From: Kinneretia aquatilis
Lineage (GTDB): Bacteria > Pseudomonadota > Gammaproteobacteria > Burkholderiales > Burkholderiaceae_C
Reading direction: 5' to 3'
Length of the DNA stretch: 64,000 bases
Assembly (NCBI RefSeq): GCF_002885975.1
Contig: NZ_POSP01000003.1
Coordinates: forward strand, 1,770,440-1,834,439
The notes under the pieces were generated by a model, which saw nothing but the letters and a program-made list of their open reading frames with translations, had not been told where the DNA came from and searched no databases. This document shows positions 37,574 to 63,104 of this stretch, in pieces. Position 1 is the first letter of the stretch; each line of letters starts with the position of its first letter. The position numbers were made by a program, and so were the translations under genes.

Positions 37574-40500
37574 TCAGGCCGCCACGATATTGAGCGGCCC
37601 GTTGCCGAACTTCTCCGGCACATGGCCGAAGGCGAACAGCCGGAAATCGTTGTGGGCGAAGTTGCCGAGGTACTTGCCCTGATCGGCAATGACCACGCCG
37701 ACATCGTCGTTGCGCTCGAACGCCGTGGTGCTGAGGCTGAGCTCGTAGGCCAGCAGATCCAGGCTCAGGGCGCTGGCGATATTGGCATCGCCCACCAGGC
37801 TGCGGTAGCACCCATCCAGCACACCGCCGTTCTTGATCAAGCTGTCGATGCGCTGAACCCATTCGTCCGCCAGGCGCACGCCACGCAAGCGGTTGTTGCG
37901 CAGGCGCAGCCGGCCGTTGCCATGGGCCAGGCTGACCCGTCCGGCCTTCAGGGCCTGGCTCAGGCCCTGGAACAGGGCTTGCGGGAACTCGGGCAGGCTG
38001 GCGTCGCCGTACAAGGCCAGCTGGCCGTGGAACAGGTTGTCGGCCAACAAGGTGTCTGCGCGCGCATCGGCCAGGGTCAGGGCCGAGCCACCCTGGCTCA
38101 GCAGCACGCCGACACGCCAGCGCTCCAGCGTGGCCAACAGCTGCTGAGCCGGCACCTGCTCATCCTGCAGCTCTCGCTGGAACTGCTGCAGCGCCTCGCG
38201 CTCCTCGGGGGCCAGCGCCAAGGCGCCCGTGTCGGCCATGCGCAGGTAGTTGGCGATCTGGGCTCCCAGGCTCTTGCGCTGGGCTGCGCTGAGCTGGGCA
38301 TAGGCCTCGGCCACCCGCAGATCGAGCGGCTCGAACACCCGCCCTTCCTTGACCTCGAAGCTGGACTGCAAGGGCTTGAAGTCGGGCAGCAGCTCAAACA
38401 CCTGCTTCAGACGCGCCGGCAGGCCCTCGCCCGTGTAGGCCTTGATGCGGCAGGAGCTGATCTCCAGCGCGCTGGCGCCGGCAATCTGCAGCAGGCTCAA
38501 TCCCTTGGGGGTGAAGCCGCTTAAGCCCAGACGGCTCAGGCGCACCTGGCTGCAGCCTTCGATGCGCAACGAAGCCCAGCTCTCGCTCCACACCAGCTCG
38601 AACTGGTCCAGCTCCACCGAGGCGAAGTTGAAGAGATTGAACTCCTGCTCCTGCACGAACAGGCGACTGGCCTGCCCGGCGCCATGCACATGCAGGCGCG
38701 TGCCGCTGGGCGCTTGCACATCGATGCTGTCCTTGAAGTGGTGATCACCGGGCAGCAGGCAGAGCACGAGGTCACGCTGCTTCTCATTGATGAGCCGCTC
38801 GATGGCCTCGTCGAGCGTGGCGAAATCACCGCCCTCGCCCACCGTCTTGCTGCAGCCACCGCCATGGCCGCGCTTGCACAAGGCATCGATCGCGTCCTGC
38901 ACCGTGTGGACCTGAGCCGCCTGGGCCTCGGCGCAGTTGCTGGGGTCATAAGCGACCTGGGCGGCGGTGAGCAGGCTGGCGTTGAAATGGATGCGATTGA
39001 ACTTGCCCGCTGCCGGCGCACCGGCCTCCAGCAGCTCGGCGCTGCAGGTCTGCGACAGCACCGTGGGCGAGAGCGACCAGCTCACACTGGCCAGACCGTC
39101 CGGCCCCGTGTCCACCTCGGCCACCAGGCCACCGCCCGGAAGCTGACCGTGGCTGGCGGTGAAACGCACTCGCGCCCCGGCCACCGGAAACTGGCCGTTG
39201 AACACCGCCACCTCCAGCGGCCGCGGCAAGGGCACGGGCGCCGGCGCGATCGGGTTGGGCGCGATCTGCTGGCCATCACCGCCGACGTAGACGAGGTTGC
39301 GCAGCTCGCTCAAGCTGGGAAAGAGCTGGCGGCAGTCATGCAGCCTCGTCCATTGATTGCCCTGGTAGCGCAGCACGGCCAGGCGCGCAAAAGCGCGCAG
39401 CACGCCCAGCGGCGCGAGGAAGCGGGGCTTGTCGGCGCTGTCCAGTGGCCACTCGATGTTGGCCGTGGCGGTGCGGGCCGGGATCTGCCAGAAATCGCCG
39501 ATGCGGTAGCGGCCGGGCGCGAACTTGAGCTCCACCCCGTCTTCCAGCTCGACCCAGCCGGTGTTGGTGTTGGGCGCGGCGGGGTTGATTTGGCCCCAGC
39601 CTTCCCAGCGCCGCACGCGCGGGTTGACACTGAACAAGCCCTTGTCCAGCGGCCCGGTCTTGCTGCTCAAATCCACCGTCACGACATTGCCGGCCGTCTT
39701 GAGCACCTGCACCAGGGTGCCGGGCTGGCCGGTCTGCTCGTGCAGCTCGCTGTAGAACTCGATCCAGCTGCCGGCCTGGATGGCGAGCACGGCGTCGCGC
39801 CCCAGGCTGGCCACTTCGAACTCATTGGCCGTGGGCTCGCCCAGCCAGCGCGTCACGCGGCTGACGATGCTGCCGTTGTCACGCGACCATTTGAAACGCG
39901 GCTTGCCCGAAATACTGCCGTCGTCATGGATCTCGACGCGGTAGAGCTGGTTCTCCAGGCGCCGGTAGCCGGCCTCGGGGGTCAGCAGGCAGGGGTCTTT
40001 GGGCGGCACCGTGGGTTCGGCGCGCGCGGCCATGCGGCCATCGGGCGCCTGGCTGAAGCTGGCCCAGGGCTCGACGCTCAGGCAGTTCAACGAGGTGCTG
40101 ACATCGCCGGCGCGTAGCAGCTTGACCTGCCAGACCAGCTGGTCGCGCGTGCTGGTGTCCGGCAGGCCCAGAGCCACCTCACGGATGTGCGGCGCCTCCA
40201 GCGGCGTGATGTGGCGCAGCCAGGCCTCGACATAGCCGATGTAGACGCCCTCGCTTGGCGCCACGGCGGCACCGGCTGCGTTGTAGACGCGGATCTGGCT
40301 CAGCGGCGCGGCCTGGGCCGGCGGCAGGGCCAGCAAGCTCTGGCCCGCCGGCTGTGTAGGCAGCACCGGCGAGATGGCGCTGGCCAGGCCGGGCTGGGTG
40401 ATCAGCGTCTGGCCGGTGGCCGCCTCGCAGAGCAGGCCCTGCACATAGCAACGGCCGGCGCTGATGCTGATGTTCTCGCCGGCACCGGTGAGCAAAAAGC

Positions 40501-40687
40501 CGGCCGCATCAATGGGCACGGCCGCGCCTGCGCCCAGGCTGTCCACGGTCTCGGTTTCGATGCGGCGGTTCAGGATGTCCTGCTGCTCATTCCACTCGGC
40601 ATCCAGCTGCACCCGCCCCTGCTGCATGCGCACCGCGCGGTAATGCTGGTCGGGCCGGTCGGTCGATCGGGTCAGGTCGGCTTTCAT
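37574..40687 (-). CDS. eCIS distal protein, putative tail fibre/tailspike (beta-helix-like)
   Basis: 1037 aa, last gene of the operon. The central region has short Gly/Ser-rich repeats and Cys pairs compatible with a right-handed beta-helix (ALCKRGHGGGCSKTVGEGGDFATLDEAIERL...HVHGAGQASRLFVQ...). Position matches Afp13/Pvc13-type fibres. Confidence 0.45.
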   Translation of the reverse strand: MKADLTRSTDRPDQHYRAVRMQQGRVQLDAEWNEQQDILNRRIETETVDSLGAGAAVPIDAAGFLLTGAGENISISAGRCYVQGLLCEAATGQTLITQPGLASAISPVLPTQPAGQSLLALPPAQAAPLSQIRVYNAAGAAVAPSEGVYIGYVEAWLRHITPLEAPHIREVALGLPDTSTRDQLVWQVKLLRAGDVSTSLNCLSVEPWASFSQAPDGRMAARAEPTVPPKDPCLLTPEAGYRRLENQLYRVEIHDDGSISGKPRFKWSRDNGSIVSRVTRWLGEPTANEFEVASLGRDAVLAIQAGSWIEFYSELHEQTGQPGTLVQVLKTAGNVVTVDLSSKTGPLDKGLFSVNPRVRRWEGWGQINPAAPNTNTGWVELEDGVELKFAPGRYRIGDFWQIPARTATANIEWPLDSADKPRFLAPLGVLRAFARLAVLRYQGNQWTRLHDCRQLFPSLSELRNLVYVGGDGQQIAPNPIAPAPVPLPRPLEVAVFNGQFPVAGARVRFTASHGQLPGGGLVAEVDTGPDGLASVSWSLSPTVLSQTCSAELLEAGAPAAGKFNRIHFNASLLTAAQVAYDPSNCAEAQAAQVHTVQDAIDALCKRGHGGGCSKTVGEGGDFATLDEAIERLINEKQRDLVLCLLPGDHHFKDSIDVQAPSGTRLHVHGAGQASRLFVQEQEFNLFNFASVELDQFELVWSESWASLRIEGCSQVRLSRLGLSGFTPKGLSLLQIAGASALEISSCRIKAYTGEGLPARLKQVFELLPDFKPLQSSFEVKEGRVFEPLDLRVAEAYAQLSAAQRKSLGAQIANYLRMADTGALALAPEEREALQQFQRELQDEQVPAQQLLATLERWRVGVLLSQGGSALTLADARADTLLADNLFHGQLALYGDASLPEFPQALFQGLSQALKAGRVSLAHGNGRLRLRNNRLRGVRLADEWVQRIDSLIKNGGVLDGCYRSLVGDANIASALSLDLLAYELSLSTTAFERNDDVGVVIADQGKYLGNFAHNDFRLFAFGHVPEKFGNGPLNIVAA

Positions 40688-40716
40688 GGTGGTGTCCCGT
40701 GATGGTTCGCTTCAGA

Positions 40717-42816
40717 TCAATTGACAAAAATCAGCCCGGCTTCGAGGCCGAAACGCAGGTATTCATCGAGGGCCTGGCGCAGATTGGCCTCGCGCTGCGG
40801 TTCTTGGAGCAGGTTCCAGACGCCCATCTCGCCACCGTCCTCGGCGCCGCGGCGGATCTCTGGCGCACAGCTCAGGCGCAGCTGGGCATAGGCCGCATGG
40901 CCGTGGCGCAGCGAGCTGAAACTGGGCGTGATGCGCAGCAGCTCGCCCTTTTTTTGTGCCGGCGACAAGCCCTGCAGCGCCAGCTCGGGCTGGCAGCGGT
41001 AGCGCCGCGGTGTGAGGGCATCGATGGGCAGGTAGCAAAAGCGCACACAGCCCTGCTGGCGCCGCTCGATCTCGACCGCGCCGTTGAACAGGCTGTTGCC
41101 CGCCTCCAGCTGGCCGGCGCTGCAGGCGCCGAGCACGGTGCAGCGGTCGATCTCGAGCGCGGTGTCGGGCAGGACCAGGGCTTGCGGGTCGATCGGCGCC
41201 GGCTGCGCGGCCACATCGGCATCGATGATGGAGGCACTCAGGCTCACGCCGCCGAGGGCCTTGGCCGCTTGAATCGGCCCGCAGATGCTGTGGCTCAGGC
41301 GGATCTGCAACTCCGGCCCATTGCCGCTGTGGCGGATGCCGCCGCGGCTGGGCCGCAGGCTGCAGTGGCGCACATCGAGCGCGCGCAAACCACCTTGCAG
41401 CTGCAGCTCGCCATCGATCCACAGGCCGGAGAAGCCAAAGCGTGTGCTGCTGTTGCCGCGCAGCTTCCAGCTGCCCACCAGCACCGGGCGGCGCTGGTTC
41501 ACCGCCTCGATCAGCAGCTCGCTGTCGGGCAGGTTGAGGTTGGGCATGAGCGCCTCGGTGGCATCGCTGTCGATGCGGATCAGGGTGCGCTGGCCAGCCT
41601 GCACTTGGGCCAGGGCGGCGGCCAGGCTCGGTTGATCCATGGGCACACGGATCAGACGCGCACCCTCGGCCGAGAACAGACCTTGCCTGGCCTCGTCCTC
41701 GGCGCGGGCCGGGCGACGGTCGTAGGGGCCACCGCCGATGTCACCGGGGAAGCCGTAGGCATAGGCCACCTCGACCCGAGCAACCGCCTGACCCGCCGGC
41801 AGAGCGATGCGGCCCAGCACCGGGTCAAAGCCCACGCAGCCGGCCGGCGGGCGACGCCACTGCGGCGGCGCCAGGCCCGGGATCGTGCCCAGATGGCAGA
41901 CGCGCAAGGCCGTCTCGGCCACCTCCACCCCATCGAGCCACACACGCAGCACCGGCCCGCCCGATTCCTGCGAGAAGTAGCGCCGTTGCGGTTCGCGGCC
42001 CTGGGCCAGGTCGGCCTGGATGGCGCTCAGCTCCTCATGCAGGGCACGGCGGGAGAGCGGCTCCGGCACATGGATGGGCTGGGCCAGATCGCTGATCTGC
42101 GCCTCGGTGCGCGGGCGGTTGAAGAGCCAGGATTCGCCGGCCGGCGCCGCTTCGCCGACATCGCGGCCCAGCGGATCGAAGCTGAAAAAGCCCGCCACGC
42201 TGCCCACCGCCGCCGTGCCCCGCTGCACGGCATAGGCCTGCAGGCGCCAGATGTGCAGGCCGATGTGCGGGATGTTGTAGCGACCGGCCGGCAGGGCCCG
42301 CACTTCGGCCGTGTGGGCGCTGGTGTCGAAGGCGCCGTCCACACGCTCCAGGGCCAGGGCCTGGCGCAGATCGGGCGTGCGGACATTGAAGGCCCTCACA
42401 TGGTTGAGATGCTGGGTCCAGCCCAGTTGCTGGAAATACTCGACCGCATGGGCGCGCCAGCCAGTGGTGTCCTGGGCCAGTTGCTCCAGCACCGGCAGCG
42501 TGCCTTTGCGCCGCCGCAGGGCCAGGGTGTTGGCCACGTGGGCGCGCTGGCCAAAAGCCTGGGTGCCCGTCACCGAGTACAGGCCGCGCACACCGAGCAA
42601 GTCACCGATGTAGGGGATCAGCCAGTCCTCGCAGGTCTCGATGAACCAGTTGTCGTAGAGCTGGGAAATGTCCTCATCGAGCAGCTGCCCCTGGCTGGCC
42701 AGCACCTCCAGCAGGGCACGCAGCGGGCCACCCTGCTCGGAATCGCGGGTTTGGTAAAAGGCCGGCAGCCGGCTGAACAGAAAGTCGACATCCAGGGTCT
42801 TGCTGGGGCTTGTCAT
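40717..42816 (-). CDS. eCIS baseplate protein, phage tail protein I (gpI)-like
   Basis: 699 aa; N-terminal block LRALLEVLASQGQLLDEDISQLYDNWFIETCEDWLIPYIGDLLGV resembles the conserved gpI/baseplate-wedge N-terminus; ATGA overlap with the upstream gene. Confidence 0.5.
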   Translation of the reverse strand: MTSPSKTLDVDFLFSRLPAFYQTRDSEQGGPLRALLEVLASQGQLLDEDISQLYDNWFIETCEDWLIPYIGDLLGVRGLYSVTGTQAFGQRAHVANTLALRRRKGTLPVLEQLAQDTTGWRAHAVEYFQQLGWTQHLNHVRAFNVRTPDLRQALALERVDGAFDTSAHTAEVRALPAGRYNIPHIGLHIWRLQAYAVQRGTAAVGSVAGFFSFDPLGRDVGEAAPAGESWLFNRPRTEAQISDLAQPIHVPEPLSRRALHEELSAIQADLAQGREPQRRYFSQESGGPVLRVWLDGVEVAETALRVCHLGTIPGLAPPQWRRPPAGCVGFDPVLGRIALPAGQAVARVEVAYAYGFPGDIGGGPYDRRPARAEDEARQGLFSAEGARLIRVPMDQPSLAAALAQVQAGQRTLIRIDSDATEALMPNLNLPDSELLIEAVNQRRPVLVGSWKLRGNSSTRFGFSGLWIDGELQLQGGLRALDVRHCSLRPSRGGIRHSGNGPELQIRLSHSICGPIQAAKALGGVSLSASIIDADVAAQPAPIDPQALVLPDTALEIDRCTVLGACSAGQLEAGNSLFNGAVEIERRQQGCVRFCYLPIDALTPRRYRCQPELALQGLSPAQKKGELLRITPSFSSLRHGHAAYAQLRLSCAPEIRRGAEDGGEMGVWNLLQEPQREANLRQALDEYLRFGLEAGLIFVN

Positions 42817-50327: not shown

Positions 50328-50331
50328 GCCT

Positions 50332-55070: not shown

Positions 55071-57130
55071 AGCCAATCTCCCACATCGGCGGCGGGCAAG
55101 GGCCGCTCCAGCTTGGCGAACTCGGCCGCGGCGGCATCGCGCAGATGGCGCATGGTGATGACCGAGTCTTCGTCGGCGGCCAGAAACGCGGCATTGAGCG
55201 CCAGATTGCGGATGTGGCCGCCCGAGAGCGAGAGCCGCATCAGCTTGCCGATGTCGATGGCCCCCAGCGGCGCGGCGGCCGGGAAGGCGCGCTCCCAGAT
55301 CGCGGCGCGGGCCGCCTCGTCCGGGAAGGGGAACTGGACGATGAAGCGGATGCGGCGCTGGAAGGCCGGGTCGATGGCCTGCTTGAGATTGGTGGTCAGA
55401 ATGGCCAGGCCGCGGTAGCTCTCCACCCGCTGCAAGAGGTAGCTGACCTCGATATTGGCGTAGCGGTCGTGGCTGTCCTTGACCTCGCTGCGCTTGCCGA
55501 ACAAGGCATCGGCCTCGTCGAACAAGAGGATGGCGCCGCTGGCTTCGGCGGCGGCAAAGACGCGGGCCAGGTTCTTCTCGGTCTCGCCGATGTACTTGCT
55601 GACCAGGCTGGCCAGATCGATGCGGTAGAGATCGAGCTGAAGCTCGCGCGCCAGCACCTCGGCGGCCAGGGTCTTGCCCGTGCCGCTGCCGCCGCTGAAC
55701 AGAGCGCTCAGGCCCAGGCCGCGGCTGCTGCGCTCGGCAAAGCCCCAGCTCTGGTAGACCCGGTGGCGCTGGCGCAGCTGGGCGGCCATGCTGCGCAGGC
55801 TGTGCAGGGCCGGCTCGGGCAGGACCAGATCGGCCCATTGCGCGCGCGCCTCGATGCGCTGGGCCAGGTCGTCCAGCCCGGCGCCCCCCGAACCCGCAGT
55901 CATGCCCGGCGCCGTGCGCGTGGAGGGCCGCAGCAGCTCACCTGCGGCCTCGCGCGCCGCCTCGCGTGCGGCCTGCCACAAGCGGCTGGCCCGGGCACGC
56001 TCGTCCTCCCCCGCATGATCGTCCAGCGCAGCGCGCCATTGCCCGGCCAGCTGCAGAACCTGGGTCTGGGACAGCTGGAACTGCTCGGCCAGGGCCGGCA
56101 TCTGGCGCTGCAGCTCGGTGCTCACATCCCTCTGGCCCAGACTGTCCCGCCACAAGGCCAGGCGGCGTTCCGCGCTCAGCTCGGTGGAAGGCAGCAAGCG
56201 CTGCGCCCGGCGCAGCGGCAGGCGACCCGCCTCGCCGCGGCTGCTGAGCAGCAGCAGACTGGGCAGGCCGTCGAGCCAGACGGCCAACTGCCCCCCGGAC
56301 GCTCCGCCCTCCTCCATGGCATCCAGATCCACCCAGAGCAGGCCGCGGTGCAAAAGCGCCTCGCGGGCCCAGAGCCGGGTCATGGCCTCGCGCTCGGCCG
56401 ATGGGGGCAGCTCTTGCAGGCGGTAGAGGCTCAGGCCCAGGCGCTGCGCCAAAGTGTGGACCAGCACCTCGGCCTCACGGCCGGCGTAGTGGGCCACCGG
56501 GGTCTGGAGCAGTGAAGGTGCCGCCTCCCAGGCGGCGGCCAGTGCGGCCAGGCCGGCATCCTGCTGCGCCCCCAGCTCCGCCTCCGACTCCATACCACGC
56601 CGCGCCGCTTGGCGCTGCAACCAAGGCGCCAGGCGCGGGTCGGCATAGCGGACCCCGGCGAGGGCGTGCAGCACGGTCTCGTCCACCGCCCAGCGTGCGT
56701 CGAGCGGGCCCAGTCCGCCGACCAACTCGATCAGCTGCCAGCGGCGCAGCGGCGCCACCGGCGTCAGGGCTTCCCAACGCGACTCGGCCAGCAAGGCCAG
56801 GGCCAGGCGGCCGTTCAGCCAGGGTTGCCCGCCCTCGCCCTGCGCTTGCGCCAGCAGCGGGCCGATGCGGGCATCGAGCTGCGGCGCCACGGCGAGCAAC
56901 AAAGCATCGCGCTCAAACGGACTCAGGCCCAGGCTGTGCGCCAGTTGCCCCAGGGCCGGCGGCACCTGCTCGCCCGACAGCAAAGGCATGGGCTGGCCCG
57001 GCGCCTGCTGCAGATGCTGCTCGATGCGCGCCAGGGCTTGCGTGAGCACGCGGGCATTGCGCGCCTGCTCGCGGTGGCTGCTGCTGCCCTTGCCGATCGG
57101 CGAGCTCGATGGGGCCGAGGCGGTGTTCAC
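55067..57130 (-). CDS. eCIS AAA+ ATPase (Afp15/Pvc15-like)
   Basis: 687 aa; C-terminal AAA+ module with Walker A GGSGTGKT, Walker B ILLFDEAD, sensor/arginine finger; long N-terminal extension; GTG start overlapping the DUF4255 gene stop. Confidence 0.8.
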   Translation of the reverse strand: MNTASAPSSSPIGKGSSSHREQARNARVLTQALARIEQHLQQAPGQPMPLLSGEQVPPALGQLAHSLGLSPFERDALLLAVAPQLDARIGPLLAQAQGEGGQPWLNGRLALALLAESRWEALTPVAPLRRWQLIELVGGLGPLDARWAVDETVLHALAGVRYADPRLAPWLQRQAARRGMESEAELGAQQDAGLAALAAAWEAAPSLLQTPVAHYAGREAEVLVHTLAQRLGLSLYRLQELPPSAEREAMTRLWAREALLHRGLLWVDLDAMEEGGASGGQLAVWLDGLPSLLLLSSRGEAGRLPLRRAQRLLPSTELSAERRLALWRDSLGQRDVSTELQRQMPALAEQFQLSQTQVLQLAGQWRAALDDHAGEDERARASRLWQAAREAAREAAGELLRPSTRTAPGMTAGSGGAGLDDLAQRIEARAQWADLVLPEPALHSLRSMAAQLRQRHRVYQSWGFAERSSRGLGLSALFSGGSGTGKTLAAEVLARELQLDLYRIDLASLVSKYIGETEKNLARVFAAAEASGAILLFDEADALFGKRSEVKDSHDRYANIEVSYLLQRVESYRGLAILTTNLKQAIDPAFQRRIRFIVQFPFPDEAARAAIWERAFPAAAPLGAIDIGKLMRLSLSGGHIRNLALNAAFLAADEDSVITMRHLRDAAAAEFAKLERPLPAADVGDWL

Positions 57131-58434
57131 AGCAGCAACTCCGGGCCGGCAAAGCGGCCATCGGCCGCCACCGTCAGCGGGCTGACGCCGGCATCGACCT
57201 GCAGGCGCGCGAGATAGCGGCCGGGCAGCACATGCTGGAACGGAATGCGCAGCACGCCATTGCTGGGGGCCGGCGCAATCACCCCATTGCCCTCGGGCGC
57301 ATCAAAGCTGTAGGCTCGGGCCGGCCGGTCGGCGGGCGGGTCTTTCTCGTTGAGCAGCAGGCGCACCCGCTGGCGCGCGCCGACCGGAGGCGTCACCGTG
57401 GCCCTGATGCGGCCCTTGGCATAGGCCTGGCCGTCGATCACGTCCTGACCCGCACCGGGCTCCAGCGCAAACAGCGCTTGCGGATGCAACACCAGGGCGC
57501 CGAGATTGGACTCCACCACCCCATGCGGCTGCGGTGGCGAACCCATCAGATGGGCATGGCAGACCTGCACGCTGCACAGGCCCGCGCGCAAGTCCAGGGC
57601 GGGGCTGAGCTGCAGGCGGATCTCTTCGTCGCTGACCGAGAGCAGGCTAGCCGGCGGCAGCGACACGCCGTTGAGCTTGAGCGTCAGCTGTGGCGACTTC
57701 AGCAATGCGCCGCTGATGCGCACGATGCTGTTGGGCAGGATGGGCGTGCCCGCCGGCCCTTCGGCTTCCACCCGGTCGATGCGGGGGCTGCGCAGGGTCA
57801 GCACATGCACCTGGCGGCTGCTCACAGGCAGCGGTGTGCGCACACTGCGCGGCGTCTGCGTCAGCAAGACGCTGACCGAATAGGCTGCACTGGGCCGCGC
57901 TGGCAGCTGGATGGCCCCCCAGAGCCGCGAGACCTCGTCCATGCCCAGGTTCATGGCCGTGATGCGCAGCTGCTCCAGCTGGTCGGCCAGGCCCGCCAGC
58001 TCCAGCTGCTTGGGAAGATTGGGTTTATTGGCTTCCGGCTTGAGCGCACGGCGAATGGCCTCACGCCCCAGGGCCGGCGTGTCGTGCAAGACCTGCATGG
58101 CGGCGCCAAGCAGGATCTCGGCATGGAAATCCTGCAGGCCGTAGGCCACCAGCAGGTAGTGCAGGTCCAGGGCCAGGGCCGGATTGGCGCTGCGCTCGCC
58201 GCGCCCATCGCGGCTGGGCAGGTCGAGATTGGCCCAACCGGTGTTGCGGGTCTGGTTGTAGAGCACGATGTTCAGCGAAGGCAGGTCCGCCTGGGCCTGG
58301 GCTTTCTCGGGCGGCAAGCAGGTCACCGCCGGGCTGGCGCCCAGCACATCGGCCAGCTTGAGCGCGACAAAGCCATCGCTGATCAGTTGCTGCAAGACCG
58401 CCGAGGTGGCGGCCAATCCCAGGGCCGAGCTCAT
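57127..58434 (-). CDS. DUF4255-domain protein (Afp16/Pvc16-like tail terminator/cap)
   Basis: 435 aa; N-terminal DUF4255 block MSSALGLAATSAVLQQLISDGF...VTCLPPEKA...LNIVLYNQTRN; ATGA overlap with the previous gene. Confidence 0.75.
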   Translation of the reverse strand: MSSALGLAATSAVLQQLISDGFVALKLADVLGASPAVTCLPPEKAQAQADLPSLNIVLYNQTRNTGWANLDLPSRDGRGERSANPALALDLHYLLVAYGLQDFHAEILLGAAMQVLHDTPALGREAIRRALKPEANKPNLPKQLELAGLADQLEQLRITAMNLGMDEVSRLWGAIQLPARPSAAYSVSVLLTQTPRSVRTPLPVSSRQVHVLTLRSPRIDRVEAEGPAGTPILPNSIVRISGALLKSPQLTLKLNGVSLPPASLLSVSDEEIRLQLSPALDLRAGLCSVQVCHAHLMGSPPQPHGVVESNLGALVLHPQALFALEPGAGQDVIDGQAYAKGRIRATVTPPVGARQRVRLLLNEKDPPADRPARAYSFDAPEGNGVIAPAPSNGVLRIPFQHVLPGRYLARLQVDAGVSPLTVAADGRFAGPELLL

Positions 58435-59345
58435 GAGCGCCGCCGTTCTGCCAGATAGGACTCCAGCGACTGCGGCGCACGCGCCTGCGCCTGCGCGGGG
58501 TTCGGCTGCGGAGCGGCCGCAGGCGCCGGGGCCCCGATCGGCTGCACTTCGATGCGGCCGATGTGGATCTCGATCTGCGGTGCCAGAGCTTCATGCCGCA
58601 TGGAGTGCGCCGAAGCGGCGCTCTCGCGCCGTTCAGGCAGCGTATGCAGGGAAGCTTCGCGCGGGGCCTGCACGGCATCCAGCGGCTGAAGCTTCAAGGA
58701 TGCCAGCGATGGCAGCGCTGGACCGCGCGCCGCCGAGCTGTCGTCCGCAGTGGCTGCCGGCTCCAGGCGATCCAGCGCGGCCATGCGTGATGGACGCGAT
58801 GGCGTCACAGCTGTCGAGCGGCCCCGCTGTGAATCGGCCGGTTGCAGCGCGGCCTCAGATTCCAGCCCGCGATCGCGCGCAGGACGGCGTTCAGCCGGGC
58901 TCCGGCTGGCATCGGCCCAGCCACTCTCCTGGGGCCGCGACGGGGCCGTCACGTGATGCCAAGGCTGCTGCACACGAGCCTCCGCAGGAGACGACTGCGC
59001 GGTTGCGGCGCGCGGCGCCGGGTCACGCTCGCTCGTCGCCGGGGCGGAGCGCGCCGATGAACCGGCGTCTGACAAGGCCTGCATCACAGGGCCGTGCGGC
59101 TGAGGCGCAGCATCTGCGCGGGGGCTGGTCCAGGGCTGCGGGGACGGGCCGCGCGCCGGCACGCCGAGGCCATCGCCCTCACCCGGCTCGGCCCACGCAG
59201 CAGGATCCGCCCCCCATCGCGCAGGTCCGTTCGGCGCTGGAGCGTCCTCAAAACGCGAGGCACGGCGCGGCTGCAAGCCGGGCGCTTGCACGGCCTTGCG
59301 GGCCAGCGCGGCGAAGAAGTCCGAGGCCATGCCCTGGGTCTTCAT
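58431..59345 (-). CDS. Pro/Ala-rich protein at the tape-measure position (putative tail length determinant)
   Basis: 304 aa from ATG 59345 (MKTQGMASDFFAALARK...), overlapping the upstream stop. Mostly Pro/Ala/Ser/Arg low complexity, then a conserved-looking C-terminus APQIEIHIGRIEVQPIG...SLESYLAERRRS. Lies between tube/chaperone-like genes and the cap gene. Confidence 0.4.
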   Translation of the reverse strand: MKTQGMASDFFAALARKAVQAPGLQPRRASRFEDAPAPNGPARWGADPAAWAEPGEGDGLGVPARGPSPQPWTSPRADAAPQPHGPVMQALSDAGSSARSAPATSERDPAPRAATAQSSPAEARVQQPWHHVTAPSRPQESGWADASRSPAERRPARDRGLESEAALQPADSQRGRSTAVTPSRPSRMAALDRLEPAATADDSSAARGPALPSLASLKLQPLDAVQAPREASLHTLPERRESAASAHSMRHEALAPQIEIHIGRIEVQPIGAPAPAAAPQPNPAQAQARAPQSLESYLAERRRS

Positions 59346-60079
59346 GCCAGCACCCGTTCCAGATAGCGCGCCCGGCGGCCGGGGCTCAGGGCCAGCACCT
59401 GGGCCTCGCTCCAACCATAGGCCCGGGCCAGCAGATGCACCTGATCGAGGCAGCGCTCGGACCAGCTCGCCAGGGCGCTGAGCAAATGGCTTGCAATGTC
59501 AAAGCCCTCGCTCCAGCCATGCTCGCAAGCCGGGCATTGCAGGGCCAGCTCGGTGTGGGCCTGCGGGTCGGCGTCGCTGAGCGCCGCGCTCAGCCGCTGC
59601 ACTGCCTCCTCGCTCAGAGCCAGCGGCGCGGCGGCCTCGGCCTGGTCTTGCTCGCTCAGCTGCAGGCAGCGCGCCATCAGCAAGGCGCGGGCCTGGCCCT
59701 CGTCTGCCTGCTGCGCCGCGTCCCAGAGGTCGCGACTATCTGGCAGGCGGCAGCGCAACAGGCGTCCGTCGAGTTCCAGCGTCAGGGCTTCTGCGCTGCC
59801 CGAGGTTTGCTCCGGCACCATCAGCTCGGGCACTTGCAAGGCCAGCTCCAAGCTCTCACCACAACGCGGGCATATGGCCAGCAGCTCCAGCTGTGGGCCG
59901 AACAAGGCCTGTTGCAGCTCCAGGAGCTGGCGGTCGCGCTGGCCCAGGGGCAGGCTCGCGGCCCAGCCGGGCTCGGCCTGCCAGACGCGGTCCAGCAAGG
60001 CACAGGCGCGCAGCGGCGGCGGCAGGCCGTGGCTGCTGTCGAGCAGGTCCAGCCAGTCGGCGGAGCTCAGGGAAGCCAT
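59342..60079 (-). CDS. zinc-ribbon-like hypothetical protein (possible tail assembly chaperone)
   Basis: 245 aa, ATG at 60079; two CxxC pairs (CPRCGES ... CPACEHG) ~110 aa apart; follows the tube gene. Confidence 0.45.
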   Translation of the reverse strand: MASLSSADWLDLLDSSHGLPPPLRACALLDRVWQAEPGWAASLPLGQRDRQLLELQQALFGPQLELLAICPRCGESLELALQVPELMVPEQTSGSAEALTLELDGRLLRCRLPDSRDLWDAAQQADEGQARALLMARCLQLSEQDQAEAAAPLALSEEAVQRLSAALSDADPQAHTELALQCPACEHGWSEGFDIASHLLSALASWSERCLDQVHLLARAYGWSEAQVLALSPGRRARYLERVLA

Positions 60080-60115
60080 GATTCAAAGACCCTCGGTGCG
60101 ATCAGGCGCGAAGGT

Positions 60116-60640
60116 TCAGCTCGGCTCGGTGAAGCTGACTTCGTTGGGCTCGGCCACTTCGTAATCACGCTCCCAGCCCTCGTTCTCGAGCTTGAGGCGG
60201 GCGATGGCCACGGCATTGGCATTGGCGTCCAGGTCCGGCAGGGCCTGGAACTCGCTGACCCAGGCACGGAAGACCTTGTAGGCCAGCACCAGCTGCCCGG
60301 TCTCGTTGTAGAGCTCGATGATCAGGTCCTTGCGGAAGTCCTTGAGCGAGACCTCGGCGCCCAGGCCGGAACCATAGTTCCAGACCTTGTTGGCCCATTT
60401 CTCGAACTCGGTGTCGTGCGTGACGCCACGCTCCAGGGTGATGGCATCGAACTCGGTACGGCCGGGTGATTTGCGGCTGCTGCTCTGGTCGCCGCCCTCG
60501 CGGTGCTTGACCACTTCGGTGCTGCGCTTGAGCGCCGAGACCTTGCTGATGCCGGCGACATAACGTCCATCCCACTTGACGCGGAACTTGAAGTTCTTGT
60601 AGGGATCGAAACGCTGGGCATTGACGGTGAACTGGGCCAT
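60116..60640 (-). CDS. contractile tail tube protein (Afp1/Pvc1, T4 gp19 family)
   Basis: 174 aa from ATG 60640 with AAGGAG SD; MAQFTVNAQRFDPYKNFKFRVKWDGRYVAGISKVSALKRSTEVVKHREGGDQSSSRKSPGRTEFDAITLERGV is the canonical eCIS/T6SS-like tube signature. Confidence 0.85.
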   Translation of the reverse strand: MAQFTVNAQRFDPYKNFKFRVKWDGRYVAGISKVSALKRSTEVVKHREGGDQSSSRKSPGRTEFDAITLERGVTHDTEFEKWANKVWNYGSGLGAEVSLKDFRKDLIIELYNETGQLVLAYKVFRAWVSEFQALPDLDANANAVAIARLKLENEGWERDYEVAEPNEVSFTEPS

Positions 60641-60656
60641 GACGCGACTCCTTGAC

Positions 60657-62942
60657 TCAAACCTGGATCTGACCAGCCAGCTGCTGGATGCGGATGACGA
60701 CGAACTCCGCCGGCTTGAGCGGCGCGAAGGCGACGAGGATGTTGACGACACCGCGGTTGATGTCGTCCTGGGTGGTGGTCTCGCGGTCGCACTTGACGAG
60801 GTAGGCTTCCTTGGCGCTCTTGCCCTGGAAGGCGCCGAGGCGGAACAGGCTGTTCATGAAGGCGCCAAGGTTGAGCCGGATCTGCGCCCAGAGCGGCTCG
60901 TCATTGGGCTCGAAGACCACCCACTGGGTGCCGCGGTAGAGGCTTTCCTCTAGGAACAGGGCCAGGCGACGCACCGGCACGTACTTGTACTCCGAGCTCA
61001 TCTGATCGGCGCCGCGCAAGGTGCGCGCGCCCCAGGACACGGCGCCGTAGACCGGCAGCACCCGCAGGCAGTTGACGCCCAGGGGGTTGAGCGCGCCGCA
61101 CTCGCCATCGGTCAGGGTGTAGGCGGTCTTCTGCACGCCGCTGAGCGTGGCCTCGGTGCCGGCCGGCGCCTTCCAGACGCCGCGCTCGGCATCGGTGCGG
61201 GCGAACAGGCCGGCCACCGTGCCGCTGGGCGGGGTCAGGCGCAGCTTGCCATTGCGCAGCGGGTCGGCGATGTAAACCCAGGGGTAGTAGACCGCCGCAT
61301 GGTCGGACTTGGGCAGGCCGGTGCCGTTGACGGCCGCCACCATCTGGGCCGGGTCCTGCGCCGAGGGCGGCGCGTCGATCACGAAGAAGGCGCGGCGCTC
61401 CTCGCAGTAGGCGGCCGCATCGGCCAGCACGCCGGGTTCGGTCACACCGGGCAGGCTGAGCAAGGTGAACAGATCCACCTCTTCCAGCGCATAGATGCCT
61501 TGGCGCTTGGCGCGGTCGGCAATGAAGGTGGGGTAGAGATCGGCCTCGGCGTAGGGCGTCTCGGTGCCGCCGGCCAGGTAGAGATTACCCGGCTGGGTGC
61601 TGGTGGCGCCGGCCAGCAGGTGCAGCTCGTTGGCAATGCTCTTGGCCGGGGCAGCGCTGACGGCGATGCTGCTGCCGGCACCCCGCGAACCGGTGGCCAG
61701 CACCAGGCTTGTGCCGCTGACCTTGACCGTGAAATCACGGTAGCTCGGGTGGCCCGGCTTCAAAGCACGCACGGCGGCTTGCAGGCGCGCCGCCACATCG
61801 TCGAGCTTGGCAGCCAGGTCAGCGCCTGCGGCGGCTGCGCTGCCGATATCGACCACATCAGGGCCATAGCCATCGAGGCTGATGCGCAGCGCGCTGTGCG
61901 TGGCATCCGGCAGGGTGTTGAGGTCATTGGCCGCAAACACAGCACTGCTCAGCGTGGCCGGATCGGGCACGGGTGCCGGGCGGATGGTCGCCACCGCGTC
62001 CACCTCCAGACCGCCCGAGGCAGCGCCCAGCTTGAGCACGCCGCTGGCATTGTTCTTCTGGCCGGCCAGCACCCGCAGCTGCGAGAACTCGCCGCCTTGG
62101 CCCGAGGTCATCAAGATCTGCTGGGTGCCCGGCGGGCGGGCGCAGGTGAACAGGTCGTAGGCCTGCTGGCTGTTGGCCTGGGCGCGCACCTGGAGCTGGA
62201 TGGCGGCGCACAAGCTATCCAACCGCTGCGTGGCCGTGCCGCCGCCGATGTCGCCCGGCAAAGCGATCAGCACCTTGACCGGCGGCAGGCCGTTGACCGA
62301 GACCCGGAACTCGTTGTGGTTGGCGTCCAGCAATGTCGCAACATCGGCCAGGGGCAGGCTTCGCGAAGTGCCAGCCGGCAGGGCATCGAGCGCAGCCTTG
62401 CTGACCAGGCGGCTGAGCTTGACCAGCTGCGAGCTGGCATTGACCAGATCCAGCACATAGCGCGCATCGGCGGAGTTCATCGAGACATTGGCATAGCTCT
62501 CGGCCGCCCCATCCTCGGCGCGGAACAGCGAGAGGTTGAAGCTGCTGCCCGGGTTGGCGCTCTGGTGATCGACGCGGATCTCGATGCCATTGCCCGAGGC
62601 CCCCGCGTCCAGCGCCGTGAGCTTGAGCACATCGGCGGCGGCGGCATTGCGCAGGCTGCGTTCGGCCGTGCTGGCGTCCTTGACCAGGCGGATGGCATAG
62701 GCCTCGGTGCCGCCGTTCTGGAAGTACTGGCGCACGGCATAGCCCAGCTCGGAGTCGAGGGCCAGGCCGCCGAAGCGGCGCTCGTAGTCCGAGAAGCTGA
62801 ACAGGCGCACCGCCTTGTTGATCGGCCCCCGGGGCGCGGAGCCGGCGAAGGCCGCGATGGCCGTCGCCACGCCGCTGATGGTGCGCACCCCGCTGGGCAG
62901 CTCCTCGATGTAGACGCCAGGATAGTTCAGTTGCGCAGGCAT
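60657..62942 (-). CDS. contractile tail sheath protein
   Basis: 761 aa from ATG 62942 with AGGAG SD; N-terminus MPAQLNYPGVYIEELPSGVRTISGVATAIAAFAG and C-terminal sheath domain (GVNCLRVLPVYGAVSWGARTL) are the conserved sheath signatures; first gene of the operon. Confidence 0.85.
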   Translation of the reverse strand: MPAQLNYPGVYIEELPSGVRTISGVATAIAAFAGSAPRGPINKAVRLFSFSDYERRFGGLALDSELGYAVRQYFQNGGTEAYAIRLVKDASTAERSLRNAAAADVLKLTALDAGASGNGIEIRVDHQSANPGSSFNLSLFRAEDGAAESYANVSMNSADARYVLDLVNASSQLVKLSRLVSKAALDALPAGTSRSLPLADVATLLDANHNEFRVSVNGLPPVKVLIALPGDIGGGTATQRLDSLCAAIQLQVRAQANSQQAYDLFTCARPPGTQQILMTSGQGGEFSQLRVLAGQKNNASGVLKLGAASGGLEVDAVATIRPAPVPDPATLSSAVFAANDLNTLPDATHSALRISLDGYGPDVVDIGSAAAAGADLAAKLDDVAARLQAAVRALKPGHPSYRDFTVKVSGTSLVLATGSRGAGSSIAVSAAPAKSIANELHLLAGATSTQPGNLYLAGGTETPYAEADLYPTFIADRAKRQGIYALEEVDLFTLLSLPGVTEPGVLADAAAYCEERRAFFVIDAPPSAQDPAQMVAAVNGTGLPKSDHAAVYYPWVYIADPLRNGKLRLTPPSGTVAGLFARTDAERGVWKAPAGTEATLSGVQKTAYTLTDGECGALNPLGVNCLRVLPVYGAVSWGARTLRGADQMSSEYKYVPVRRLALFLEESLYRGTQWVVFEPNDEPLWAQIRLNLGAFMNSLFRLGAFQGKSAKEAYLVKCDRETTTQDDINRGVVNILVAFAPLKPAEFVVIRIQQLAGQIQV

Positions 62943-63104
62943 GATGGAAAACTCCTTCTGGCGCCGTTTCGACAAGGCGCACGACGCGACGCTCGGGACT
63001 CGATCCGCCCACCGCAGCACCGGGCCGCGGCGGCACGCTGCCTGTCACGACCGGGAATGGCTGCATCAGGCCCGCGCAGCCTATGAGGGGCGTTGACCGC
63101 ACAA

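What the first reader, a model, noticed from the sequence alone, without database searches (positions are those of the whole stretch)
37574..63020. Complete ~25.5-kb extracellular contractile injection system (eCIS) operon with a non-Afp gene order
Eighteen co-directional, largely overlapping (ATGA/GTGA-coupled) genes on the minus strand make up a full phage-tail-like injection machine with no capsid, portal, terminase or lysis genes, so this is an eCIS rather than a prophage. The order is sheath-tube-chaperone-like-TMP-like-DUF4255 cap-AAA ATPase-small ORF-DUF4157 cargo-tube paralog-LysM-gpD-gpV-PAAR-gp25-gp6-gp7-gpI-fibre. This differs from the Afp/PVC layout in three ways: the cargo is mid-operon, there is a single sheath gene, and the ATPase/cap module sits before the baseplate genes. 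A betaproteobacterial eCIS of this layout is, to my knowledge, not experimentally characterised.
Basis: partly seen in the sequence, partly recalled or inferred. Interest (0 to 1): 0.85.

Follow-up and report, generated by a model that had tools for sequence, protein, structure and literature searches.

The report
Common-type phage-tail-like injection system operon
This is a complete 18-gene operon for a phage-tail-like protein-injection machine in a freshwater betaproteobacterium, but its "unusual" gene order is the standard, already catalogued layout of a very widespread lineage, so it is a correct but ordinary find.

Summary
Eighteen co-directional minus-strand genes (37574-62942) encode sheath, tube, cap, AAA+ ATPase, a DUF4157 protein, hub, spike, PAAR-like tip, gp25, two baseplate-J proteins, a Tail_P2_I adaptor and a DUF6519 fibre. 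Ten of 17 junctions are ATGA/GTGA overlaps. No head, terminase, integrase, lysis or T6SS membrane-complex genes lie in the window.

The novelty claim does not hold. The same gene order occurs in every related locus examined, from about ten phyla and two actinobacterial plasmids. Its composition (split VgrG, two Afp11 copies, PAAR, one sheath) matches published lineage II, subtype IIc-like. The DUF6519/Tail_P2_I baseplate is the catalogued "eBAP5" type. The mid-operon DUF4157 position is a lineage-wide cargo bay holding 0 to 5 or more such genes. Streptomyces davawensis carries an experimentally studied system with the same slot order.

"Extracellular" is unproven. The nearest solved sheaths belong to a cytoplasmic (Streptomyces) and a membrane-bound (haloarchaeal) system.

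One detail is worth noting. The 1132-aa DUF4157 protein belongs to a conserved ~1.1-kaa family with invariant HExxH and HNH-like motifs. Its central ~400 aa differ sharply from those of a near-identical strain.

Verdict: new member of a known kind, low interest.

The parts
60657..62942 (-). Single sheath gene (761 aa). The true start is the ATG at 62942.
   Evidence: Phage_sheath_1 and Phage_sheath_1C match residues 492-753. The nearest solved chains are the S. coelicolor CIS sheath 8BKY (2e-76) and the Halogeometricum CIS sheath 9EZM (1e-74). Pvc2 (2e-45), Afp2/3 and tCIS (1e-33) are much further. An RBS (AGGAG) lies upstream.
60116..60640 (-). Inner tube protein (174 aa)
   Evidence: Phage_T4_gp19 at 5e-46. 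Nearest solved chains are tCIS All3324 and AlgoCIS Alg1. Identity to relatives in other phyla is 63-93%. This exact protein occurs on 23 public contigs.
59342..60079 (-). Conserved 245-aa protein with two CxxC pairs. It resembles T4 gp51-type 'T4_baseplate', so an assembly-factor role is possible.
   Evidence: PF12322 at 6.7e-6, 26.4 bits against a cut-off of 24.5. PHROG 150 'baseplate hub' at 0.0036. It holds the same slot in all loci. Its function is inferred, not shown.
58431..59345 (-). Ala/Pro-rich, low-complexity 304-aa protein with a conserved C-terminal motif. It is the best positional candidate for the tape measure.
   Evidence: It has no Pfam, PHROG or NCBIfam hit. The slot is occupied in 21 loci by proteins of 277-454 aa. 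These share only a C-terminal 'I-x-I-G-R-I-E-V ... S-L-D-D-Y-L' motif. The slot is filled even where no DUF4157 gene is present. The junction with gene 3 is an ATGA overlap.
57127..58434 (-). Tube/sheath terminator cap (Afp16/Pvc16-like, 435 aa)
   Evidence: Pvc16_N (DUF4255) at 3.4e-39.
55067..57130 (-). AAA+ ATPase (Afp15/Pvc15-like, 687 aa)
   Evidence: AAA at 3e-24 plus a winged-helix domain at 4e-13. Homologues load cargo in PVC and AlgoCIS (bioRxiv 10.64898/2026.05.27.728243).
54753..55070 (-). Small conserved ORF (105 aa) coupled to the ATPase stop codon
   Evidence: It has no family hit. An 80-130-aa ORF with the N-terminal motif 'x-L-H-I-E-E-L-V-L-H-G-F' follows the ATPase in nearly all related loci. 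RefSeq annotates it in the two plasmid copies.
51358..54756 (-). DUF4157 ('eCIS core domain') protein of 1132 aa, the largest ORF in the operon. Layout: disordered N-terminus, zincin-like DUF4157, variable middle with an HNH-like motif, and a ~630-aa all-beta C-terminal region. It is the probable cargo.
50705..51361 (-).
   Evidence: It has no Pfam or PHROG hit. A profile of 25 relatives matches 9RCE_H (a chain of the Salmonella salamae CIS entry deposited as 'peptidoglycan-binding protein'; I infer it is the Afp7 counterpart, not shown) at 0.0026 and tCIS All3321 at 0.5. Identity across phyla is 44-88%.
50332..50676 (-). Small LysM/tail-X-like baseplate protein (114 aa)
   Evidence: The window copy has no hit. 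Among 18 relatives, Phage_tail_X matches 7 (best 0.026), Phage_gp53 matches 3 (best 0.00096) and LysM matches 1. Support is weak.
49215..50339 (-). gp27/gpD-like baseplate hub (374 aa)
   Evidence: A profile of 24 relatives matches residues 78-347 of the CIS VgrG chain 9RCE_F at 1.7e-4. Some sources name homologues 'Phage protein D'. More than 7,800 clusters match at E<=1e-5. No phage genome holds a relative.
48703..49218 (-). gp5/gpV-like spike (171 aa)
   Evidence: Phage_base_V at 2e-22.
48356..48679 (-). PAAR-like spike tip (107 aa)
   Evidence: DUF4280 at 3.8e-6, above its cut-off, and PAAR_motif at 0.0098. DUF4280 is the PAAR_H type; its subtype PAAR_H3 is over 80% eCIS-linked (PMC8651086). 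The subtype of this copy was not determined.
47980..48348 (-). gp25/gpW baseplate wedge protein (122 aa)
   Evidence: GPW_gp25 at 1.4e-18.
45518..47983 (-). First baseplate-J (Afp11/gp6-like) protein (821 aa)
   Evidence: Baseplate_J at 3.9e-5. The nearest solved chain is the S. coelicolor CIS baseplate J protein 9GTP_1K (2.5e-10), then T4 gp6.
42813..45521 (-). Second baseplate-J protein (902 aa)
   Evidence: TIGR02243 'putative baseplate assembly protein' at 1.7e-73 and Baseplate_J at 3.8e-12.
40717..42816 (-). Tail_P2_I-like fibre adaptor (699 aa)
   Evidence: Tail_P2_I at 1e-3, 19.4 bits against a cut-off of 20.6, and TIGR02242 at 0.0015. The position and pairing with DUF6519 match the published eBAP5 baseplate type.
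37574..40687 (-). DUF6519 (eBAP5) fibre / receptor-binding protein (1037 aa)
   Evidence: DUF6519 at 7e-48. It is 98% identical to a Kinneretia aquatilis protein. The AF2 model has pLDDT 81.7. Foldseek hits are weak: intimin Ig domains, macroglobulin-domain proteins and phage tailspikes P22 and CBA120 TSP3. This agrees with 'macroglobulin and pectin lyase' reported for the Pseudogulbenkiania orthologue.
62943..63342 (-). Conserved leader / probable promoter region
   Evidence: About 400 nt upstream of the sheath ATG are retained in four relatives whose further-upstream genes differ. The last ~160 nt are virtually identical. A CATCAT-N8-ATGATG palindrome lies at about 63104-63123. No sigma-70 consensus was found, there is no Rfam hit, and the RNA fold z-score is 0.11. 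Function is not shown.

Best explanation
The locus is a complete chromosomal gene cluster for a lineage-II contractile injection system. Its composition is subtype IIc-like, and it has the 'DUF4157/Tme-slot' and 'Tail_P2_I + DUF6519/eBAP5' baseplate type. The host is a Kinneretia/Roseateles-like betaproteobacterium.

Inferred mechanism, from homology to solved CIS and phage tails:
1. A hub forms from the gp27-like protein, the gp5/V spike, the PAAR-like tip, a LysM-like protein and a tube initiator.
2. A wedge assembles around it from gp25, two J-type proteins and a P2-I-like adaptor carrying DUF6519 fibres.
3. The gp19-like tube and the single sheath polymerise on this baseplate. Length is probably set by the Ala/Pro-rich protein in the phage tape-measure position.
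4. The Pvc16-like terminator caps the structure.
5. The AAA+ ATPase loads the 1132-aa DUF4157 protein through its disordered N-terminus.
6. Fibre binding triggers sheath contraction, which expels the tube, spike and cargo into a target.

The gene order is essentially the two phage-P2 tail operons joined (FI-FII-E-T-U-D and V-W-J-I-H), with a CIS-specific block of ATPase, small ORF, cargo bay, initiator and LysM inserted between U and D. The P2 order is from my own knowledge, not from a tool.

Shown here: gene content, order, family membership and lineage-wide conservation. Inferred: assembly, cargo loading, the nuclease activity of the cargo, and release outside the cell. I rate the extracellular mode at only about 55%.
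For: - Family hits for 13 of 18 products are above curated cut-offs. Profile hits support the hub and the initiator.
- The sheath is closest to lineage-II solved sheaths.
- The composition matches Chen 2019 for IIa/IIc: split afp8, two afp11 copies, PAAR present, no Afp12/13/14 homologues detected, subtype-specific synteny.
- The order is identical in all related loci that cover those genes. These comprise 36 genome loci spanning Pseudomonadota (alpha, beta, gamma), Acidobacteriota, Nitrospirota, Methylomirabilota, Verrucomicrobiota, Bacteroidota, Gemmatimonadota and a MAG labelled Deltaproteobacteria, plus plasmids of Mycobacterium and Streptomyces.
- The bay between the ATPase/small ORF and the initiator varies from 0.3 kb with no DUF4157 gene to more than 9 kb with five. 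This behaviour fits accessory cargo.
- AlgoCIS cargos share the layout of disordered N-terminus, DUF4157 and C-terminal domain, sit in the tube lumen, and need only the disordered N-terminal domain for loading.
- The S. davawensis DUF4157 protein Tme occupies the same slot and co-purifies with spike, tip and initiator.
- The flanks are housekeeping genes, and no phage genome holds a hub relative.
Against: - No particle, transcript or activity data exist for this organism.
- The characterised systems with the nearest sheaths are not extracellular.
- No lysis or release genes are in the window.
- The tape-measure assignment is positional only.
- LysM and initiator assignments rest on weak hits.
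- The window's own HNH-like region misses Pfam HNH. It keeps the invariant residues, but nuclease activity is untested.
- Subtype IIc is inferred from composition, not from an Afp11 phylogeny.
Confidence: 0.85

Rival explanations
1. The machine is real but does not act extracellularly. It would fire from inside the producer, either free in the cytoplasm or attached to the inner face of the envelope. That would make it a T6SS-like contact-dependent weapon or a cell-death/development device, as in its nearest studied relatives.
For: The closest solved sheaths are from the cytoplasmic S. coelicolor CIS and the membrane-bound Halogeometricum CIS. The same-layout S. davawensis CIS was proposed to act on the producer's own envelope. 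No holin, endolysin or other release gene lies in or next to the operon.
Against: None of the 18 proteins has a predicted transmembrane helix, and no membrane-anchor gene is adjacent. This contrasts with the conserved membrane protein that correlates with the T6SS mode in haloarchaea. A large fibre with Ig/macroglobulin and tailspike-like parts is retained and conserved, which fits target binding from outside.
Confidence: 0.35
2. The 1132-aa DUF4157 protein is mainly a structural tape-measure-like or plug component rather than a toxin cargo.
For: It is the largest ORF and lies immediately upstream of the hub genes, as argued for Tme. Family length is tightly kept at 1034-1189 aa, mostly 1090-1146, over 33-80% identity. 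A Streptomyces plasmid copy with an unrelated C-terminal part is 1164 aa. No immunity gene is obvious.
Against: Several loci with the full structural gene set have no DUF4157 gene in the bay, and others have two to five of very different sizes. A tape measure should be single and universal. The Ala/Pro-rich gene-4 slot is the universal one. The protein has no predicted TM or long coiled-coil segments. The central module differs sharply between near-identical strains, as in polymorphic toxins.
Confidence: 0.2
3. It is a defective prophage tail module or an R-type tailocin that kills by depolarisation without cargo.
For: The gene order resembles fused P2 tail operons (own knowledge). tRNA genes lie 3.4 kb beyond the fibre gene.
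Against: The locus has the CIS-specific Pvc16_N cap, an AAA+ ATPase and the DUF4157 'eCIS core' domain. The hub has no relative in 50,697 phage genomes. There are no head, lysis or integrase genes and no flanking repeats. The 18-gene unit is conserved across phyla.
Confidence: 0.03

Closest known systems
Streptomyces davawensis CIS with the DUF4157 'tape-measure-related effector' Tme (Nagakubo et al. 2024, PMC11126660)
   Same: The slot order by locus tag is the same: sheath 7569, tube 7570, five genes, DUF4157 protein 7576 as the largest ORF directly upstream of the hub genes, initiator 7578, spike 7580, PAAR 7582, and fibre at the end. The group is described as spread across distant phyla including Proteobacteria. 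Actinobacterial plasmid copies I fetched have exactly the window's 18-19-gene order.
   Different: Tme is about 2250 aa with predicted TM helices, coiled coils and a C-terminal EndA-like nuclease. The window protein is 1132 aa with no TM helix, a central HNH-like motif and a beta-rich C-terminus. I could not obtain the S. davawensis sequences, so direct homology was not measured.
Lineage II eCIS, subtype IIc/IIa (Chen et al. 2019, dbeCIS, PMC6899500)
   Same: The locus has a single sheath, afp8 split into gp27-like and gp5-like ORFs, two afp11 (baseplate J) genes, a PAAR gene, no classical Afp12/13/14/6, and extra subtype-specific conserved genes of unknown function.
   Different: The subtype was assigned here by composition only. 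The defining Afp11 phylogeny was not run.
eBAP5 (DUF6519) fibre with Tail_P2_I adaptor baseplate type (PMC12923769)
   Same: A Tail_P2_I gene is followed by a DUF6519 fibre as the last gene. The predicted fibre has Ig/macroglobulin-like and tailspike/pectin-lyase-like parts. The Pseudogulbenkiania ferrooxidans orthologue is a published example.
   Different: That paper finds eBAP5 correlated with Actinobacteriota. This copy is betaproteobacterial.
AlgoCIS of Algoriphagus machipongonensis (clade Ib) and its cargos Cgo1/Cgo2
   Same: The cargo layout is disordered N-terminus, DUF4157, then a C-terminal domain. Cgo2 is 1228 aa. The cargo sits in the tube lumen, loading needs the disordered N-terminus, and the ATPase Alg15 is proposed to mediate it.
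   Different: It belongs to a different lineage, with much lower sheath similarity (4e-32 against 2e-76). Its baseplate (cage, Alg19 fibres) and gene order also differ.
Afp / PVC (subtype Ia)
   Same: The core parts list is shared: tube, sheath, hub/spike, gp25, baseplate J, AAA+ ATPase and DUF4255 cap.
   Different: Afp/PVC have three sheath paralogues, a fused VgrG, Afp12/13/14, payload genes at the 3' end, and the ATPase and cap at the end of the structural genes. None of these applies here.
S. coelicolor CIS (8BKY/9GTP) and Halogeometricum borinquense T6SS-like CIS (9EZM)
   Same: These are the nearest solved sheath and baseplate-J proteins. The haloarchaeal cluster also has a mid-cluster region holding DUF4157 genes.
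   Different: Those systems act in the cytoplasm or at the membrane, and a membrane protein is required (CisA in S. coelicolor) or implicated (the haloarchaeal Hbor_38620). No membrane protein is in this operon.

Membership tests
eCIS/CIS superfamily (core set of Chen 2019) | Afp1/5-type tube (gp19) and Afp2/3/4-type sheath | tested here: met
   Phage_T4_gp19 at 5e-46; Phage_sheath_1 and Phage_sheath_1C.
eCIS/CIS superfamily (core set of Chen 2019) | Afp8 spike (gp27 + gp5), Afp9 (gp25), Afp11 (baseplate J) | tested here: met
   Phage_base_V, GPW_gp25 and Baseplate_J in two genes. The gp27-like hub is supported by a profile hit to 9RCE_F at 1.7e-4.
eCIS/CIS superfamily (core set of Chen 2019) | Afp15 AAA+ ATPase and Afp16 (DUF4255) terminator, which are absent from phages and canonical T6SS | tested here: met
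   AAA at 3e-24; Pvc16_N at 3e-39.
eCIS/CIS superfamily (core set of Chen 2019) | Afp7 LysM / tube initiator | tested here: inconclusive
   Only weak hits were found. Gene 9 profile against 9RCE_H gives 0.0026. Gene 10 relatives hit Phage_tail_X, gp53 and LysM at sub-threshold level.
eCIS/CIS superfamily (core set of Chen 2019) | No capsid, portal or terminase genes; not part of a phage | tested here: met
   The flanks are housekeeping genes. The hub has no match in 50,697 phage genomes.
Extracellular mode of action (the 'e' in eCIS) | Particles are released from the producer and act on other cells from outside | not testable with these tools
   A fibre is present and no membrane anchor is found. 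However, no release genes are present, and the systems with the nearest sheaths are intracellular or membrane-bound.
Lineage II subtype IIc (Chen 2019) | afp8 split into two ORFs, two afp11 copies, PAAR present, afp12/13/14/6 absent | tested here: met
   Searches compared with the text of PMC6899500.
Lineage II subtype IIc (Chen 2019) | Placement in the IIc clade of the Afp11 tree | not tested
   Reference Afp11 sequences from dbeCIS were not available. Sheath similarity only places the system nearer to IId/IIa structures than to Ia, Ib or tCIS.
Tme-type CIS clusters (Nagakubo 2024) | A DUF4157-N-terminal protein that is the largest ORF, sits immediately upstream of the baseplate hub genes, and shows conserved cluster synteny | tested here: met
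   The 1132-aa protein is the largest of the 18 and is GTGA-coupled to the initiator gene. The slot order equals the BN159_7569-7588 numbering.
Tme-type CIS clusters (Nagakubo 2024) | Tme-like features: TM helices, coiled coil, remote tape-measure homology, C-terminal EndA-like nuclease | tested here: not met
   No hydrophobic 19-mer was found. The C-terminal region is all-beta. No tape-measure hit appears in Pfam or PDB. An HNH-like motif sits centrally instead.
Afp/PVC (subtype Ia) | Three sheath paralogues, fused VgrG, Afp12/13/14, payloads at the 3' end | tested here: not met
   The locus has one sheath, a split hub and spike, no Afp12/13/14 hits, and DUF4157 mid-operon.
Canonical T6SS | TssB/C sheath, Hcp tube, TssJLM membrane complex, ClpV | tested here: not met
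   Sheath and tube hit phage-type families, and no membrane-complex gene lies in the 64-kb window.

The most novel reading that the evidence does not exclude
The conserved ~1.1-kaa family would define an undescribed class of CIS cargo. Its layout is a disordered N-terminus, a DUF4157 zincin-like domain, a variable middle with an invariant HNH-type D-H...N...N motif, and a ~630-aa beta-meander. It would be a polymorphic nuclease whose central ~400-aa module is exchanged between strains. The large beta-rich C-terminus would serve as a translocation or membrane-insertion device, or double as a length-setting scaffold inside the tube.
Probability: 0.2. Interest if true: 0.5.

Novelty: new member of a known kind. 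Interest (0 to 1): 0.25.

Why it matters
The finding adds one more well-preserved, complete example of a very common environmental CIS lineage, in a culturable freshwater genus (Kinneretia/Roseateles). Its value is practical rather than conceptual.

- No proteobacterial member of this lineage appears to have been purified or imaged.
- No solved structure exists for the double-J / P2-I / DUF6519 baseplate or for the ~1.1-kaa DUF4157 family.
- A tractable Gram-negative host could therefore answer how lineage-II systems are released, what sets their length, and what DUF4157 does.

The gene order itself is not new.

Tried and rejected
- **Prophage or tailocin reading.** Rejected: no head, lysis or integrase genes, no phage relatives of the hub, and no flanking direct repeats beyond chance GC-rich matches.
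- **T6SS reading.** Rejected on the family hits.
- **Structured leader RNA or riboswitch.** There is no Rfam hit and the fold z-score is 0.11. No sigma-70 or terminator consensus appears at either end.
- **Shared motif between the gene-4 C-terminus and the small-ORF N-terminus.** hhalign aligned 14 columns at 32% probability, which is too weak to build on.
- **NCBIfam and PHROGs on the unnamed genes.** These added almost nothing.
- **Direct comparison with S. davawensis proteins.** This was not possible.
- **Literature.** One search was mis-specified and returned nothing relevant.

Full report
**Observation**

The minus strand between 37574 and 62942 carries 18 uninterrupted ORFs with the high third-position GC of real genes in this 68% GC genome. 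Of the 17 junctions, ten are 4-nt ATGA/GTGA overlaps, one is an 8-nt overlap, and six are gaps of 7-36 nt. The real sheath start is the ATG at 62942, behind an AGGAG, and it gives the same 761-aa product annotated in four close relatives.

**Gene identities**

Pfam and NCBIfam name most products above curated cut-offs:
- Sheath: Phage_sheath_1 and Phage_sheath_1C.
- Tube: gp19 type, 5e-46.
- Gene 3: a T4 'baseplate' (gp51-like) Zn-ribbon protein.
- Cap: Pvc16_N/DUF4255, 3e-39.
- ATPase: winged-helix domain plus AAA.
- DUF4157 protein: PF13699, which Pfam now names 'eCIS core domain', 8e-32.
- Spike: gpV type.
- Tip: DUF4280 PAAR-like.
- gp25.
- Two Baseplate_J proteins, the second also TIGR02243 at 2e-73.
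- Fibre: DUF6519, 7e-48.
- A near-threshold Tail_P2_I protein.

- The 'gpD' product has no Pfam hit, but a profile of 24 relatives matches the gp27-like part of a CIS VgrG (9RCE_F, 1.7e-4).
- The 'tube paralog' profile weakly matches tube-initiator chains rather than tube proteins (9RCE_H, 0.0026).
- The 'LysM' protein is supported only by sub-threshold Phage_tail_X, gp53 and LysM hits among relatives.

'Chaperone-like' and 'TMP-like' remain positional guesses.

**Surroundings**

The rest of the window is housekeeping. It holds PrmC, glutaredoxin, ProRS, ProB, Obg, polyprenyl synthase, SbcCD, RecBCD, MlaC, a metallo-beta-lactamase, RtcB, an SPFH protein, an HNH endonuclease, two tRNAs and a periplasmic binding protein. 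It contains no capsid, portal, terminase, integrase, lysis or T6SS membrane-complex gene, and no flanking repeats. The hub protein has no relative in 50,697 phage genomes.

The source is a Sphaerotilaceae betaproteobacterium close to Kinneretia aquatilis:
- The fibre is 98% identical to the K. aquatilis protein.
- The operon DNA is 96-97% identical to the relatives' loci.
- The upstream kilobase is 99% identical to GCA_027863535.1.

**Is the layout unusual? No.**

The hub protein alone has more than 7,800 90%-identity clusters at E<=1e-5. I fetched 36 genome loci around it. They come from Beta-, Gamma- and Alphaproteobacteria, Acidobacteriota, Nitrospirales, Methylomirabilota, Verrucomicrobiota, Bacteroidota, Gemmatimonadales and a MAG labelled Deltaproteobacteria. 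Every one that covers the region has the same order:

sheath - tube - gene 3 - gene 4 - cap - ATPase - small ORF - [DUF4157 slot] - initiator - LysM-like - hub - spike - PAAR - gp25 - J - J - P2-I - DUF6519

RefSeq-annotated copies on a mobilizable Mycobacterium plasmid and a linear Streptomyces plasmid show the same 18-19 genes in the same order.

The literature already describes this.
- Chen et al. 2019 state that lineage II subtypes have conserved subtype-specific organisation. IIa, IIb and IIc split afp8 into gp27 and gp5 ORFs. IIa and IIc carry two afp11 copies. Afp12/13/14 are largely absent. The window matches the IIc-type composition.
- Geller et al. 2021 made DUF4157 a core eCIS domain and tested toxins from betaproteobacterial loci.
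- The 2026 receptor-binding-domain catalogue defines DUF6519 as eBAP5, anchored by Tail_P2_I. It depicts the Pseudogulbenkiania ferrooxidans orthologue, a betaproteobacterium present in my locus set as L026.
- Nagakubo et al. 2024 characterised the S. davawensis CIS. Its locus tags map one-to-one onto the window's slots, including the DUF4157 protein Tme as the largest ORF directly upstream of the hub genes. They note that this group spans distant phyla including Proteobacteria.

**Reading the order**

From my own knowledge of the phage P2 map, the order equals the two P2 tail operons joined. FI-FII-E-T-U-D corresponds to sheath, tube, gene 3, gene 4, cap and hub. V-W-J-I-H corresponds to spike, gp25, J, I and fibre. 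A CIS-specific block sits between the cap and the hub. The layout is therefore phage-like and probably ancestral, not derived.

**The mid-operon 'cargo'**

With an HMM of the DUF4157 domain I mapped the space between the ATPase/small ORF and the initiator gene in all loci. It ranges from 0.3 kb with no DUF4157 gene (four loci: two Bacteroidota, one Rhodobacteraceae, one Acidobacteriota) to more than 9 kb with five DUF4157 genes. A variable bay of this kind fits accessory cargo and argues against an essential structural role for DUF4157 proteins.

By contrast, the gene-4 slot is filled in all 21 loci where it could be read (20 related loci plus the window itself), by Ala/Pro-rich proteins of 277-454 aa. 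These share only a C-terminal I-x-I-G-R-I-E-V...S-L-D-D-Y-L motif. That makes gene 4 the better tape-measure candidate, by inference only.

**The window's DUF4157 protein**

It belongs to a coherent full-length family.
- 624 clusters match, and the 120 listed have typical lengths of 1090-1146 aa.
- The beta-rich C-terminal half has 468 representatives at 50% clustering. It almost always lies at the end of ~1.0-1.15-kaa proteins.

In a 34-member alignment, HExxH (H162, E163, H166) is invariant. So is a D383-H384...N398...N407 motif. Pfam HNH matches 26 of 34 members at sub-threshold level, though not the window copy itself.

The AlphaFold2 model (pLDDT 74.8) shows these regions:
- A disordered N-terminus at residues 1-80.
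- A beta-beta-alpha element exactly at the HNH-like motif.
- A long beta meander at 480-1110 with no confident fold match.

This layout of disordered N-terminus, DUF4157 and C-terminal domain matches the AlgoCIS cargos Cgo1 and Cgo2. Those sit in the tube lumen and need only the disordered N-terminus for loading, which is proposed to be mediated by the ATPase Alg15.

In the Burkholderiales PBB2 genome the other operon products are 94-100% identical to the window, apart from gene 4 at 88%. There, this protein is 92-100% identical in residues 1-200 and 600-1132 but only 22-56% identical in residues 200-600. This mosaic resembles polymorphic toxins. No immunity gene is evident.

**Mode of action**

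The sheath's nearest solved relatives are the cytoplasmic S. coelicolor CIS (8BKY, 2e-76) and the membrane-bound haloarchaeal CIS (9EZM, 1e-74). Pvc2 (2e-45), Afp, tCIS and AlgoCIS are much further. Sequence alone therefore cannot show that this system is extracellular.

Points for an extracellular mode:
- No product has a predicted transmembrane helix, and no anchor gene is adjacent.
- A large conserved fibre has Ig/macroglobulin-like and tailspike-like parts.

Point against: no release or lysis genes are present. I put the extracellular mode at roughly 55%.

**Leader**

About 400 nt upstream of the sheath ATG are retained in four relatives whose further-upstream genes differ. One relative has a PAS histidine kinase plus a GerE response regulator inserted directly upstream, the regulator type that Geller et al. 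link to eCIS. The last ~160 nt are virtually invariant, and a CATCAT-N8-ATGATG palindrome precedes them. I found no sigma-70 consensus, Rfam family or unusual RNA stability.

**Verdict**

The identification as a contractile injection system is right. The claimed novelty of the layout is not: this is the standard architecture of a catalogued, horizontally mobile lineage with an experimentally studied member.

What remains open is shared with the whole lineage. No proteobacterial member has been purified or imaged in the literature I could search. Also unknown are the release mode, the tape measure, the baseplate structure (the fibre has no relative among solved structures) and the role of the ~1.1-kaa DUF4157 family.

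Novelty: new member of a known kind. Interest: 0.25.

Noticed in passing
window 51358-54756 (residues ~200-600 of the product), compared with L005/L041: The central ~400 aa of the DUF4157 protein are only 22-56% identical to the copy in Burkholderiales bacterium PBB2. Both ends of the protein are 92-100% identical, and most other operon products are 94-100% identical (gene 4 is 88%). This looks like a swapped internal module that still keeps the invariant HNH-like residues.
   Followed up: partly
window 58431-59345 and 54753-55070, and the same slots in L002-L038: Two lineage-wide conserved short motifs occur in otherwise unconserved proteins. One is 'I-x-I-G-R-I-E-V ... S-L-D-D-Y-L' at the C-terminus of the Ala/Pro-rich gene-4 product. 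The other is 'x-L-H-I-E-E-L-V-L-H-G-F' at the N-terminus of the small ORF after the ATPase. The two motifs align weakly with each other (hhalign 14 columns, probability 32%).
   Followed up: partly
window 62943-63342; L041-L044 7240-7698: The sheath leader is conserved across relatives with different upstream neighbours. Its last ~160 nt are virtually identical, which is more conserved than the coding DNA (95-97%). A CATCAT-N8-ATGATG palindrome lies at about 63104-63123. One relative (L042) has a PAS histidine kinase plus a GerE response regulator inserted just upstream. No RNA structure signal was found.
   Followed up: partly
window 63519-63551 (+): A 10-codon ORF (MSITAINVRN*) with an AGGAG in front may be the remnant of a TOBE-domain gene; this rests on my recollection that TOBE proteins start 'M-x-I-S-A-R-N', not on a tool result. 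In K. aquatilis and PBB2, a TOBE-domain gene and a serine-hydrolase gene lie upstream of the sheath. Both are absent here and in GCA_027863535.1 (L044).
   Followed up: partly
window 32829-34126: Rfam reports a partial tRNA-like match (32829-32895, model positions 4-67, 55 bits) that ARAGORN does not call. It lies beside an HNH endonuclease gene (33093-33680) and tRNA-Glu and tRNA-Arg (33963-34126). The same HNH / Band7 / RtcB neighbourhood occurs in K. aquatilis, where a tyrosine integrase follows RtcB. The window has no integrase there.
   Followed up: no
window 28000-36000: GC content drops to 0.62-0.64 here, against 0.67-0.72 in the operon and in the RecBCD region. Several ORFs at 34.1-36.4 kb have no family hit.
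   Followed up: no
window 12229-25491 (-): SbcC-like and SbcD-like genes are followed directly by RecD, RecB and RecC on the same strand. This forms one 13-kb block of DNA-end-processing genes.
   Followed up: no
L013, L014, L016, L021 (Acidobacteriota loci), upstream of the initiator gene: In these loci the cargo bay exceeds 7.8-9 kb and holds three to five separate DUF4157-domain genes. In L024, L027, L029 and L036 the bay is 0.3-0.7 kb with none.
   Followed up: partly
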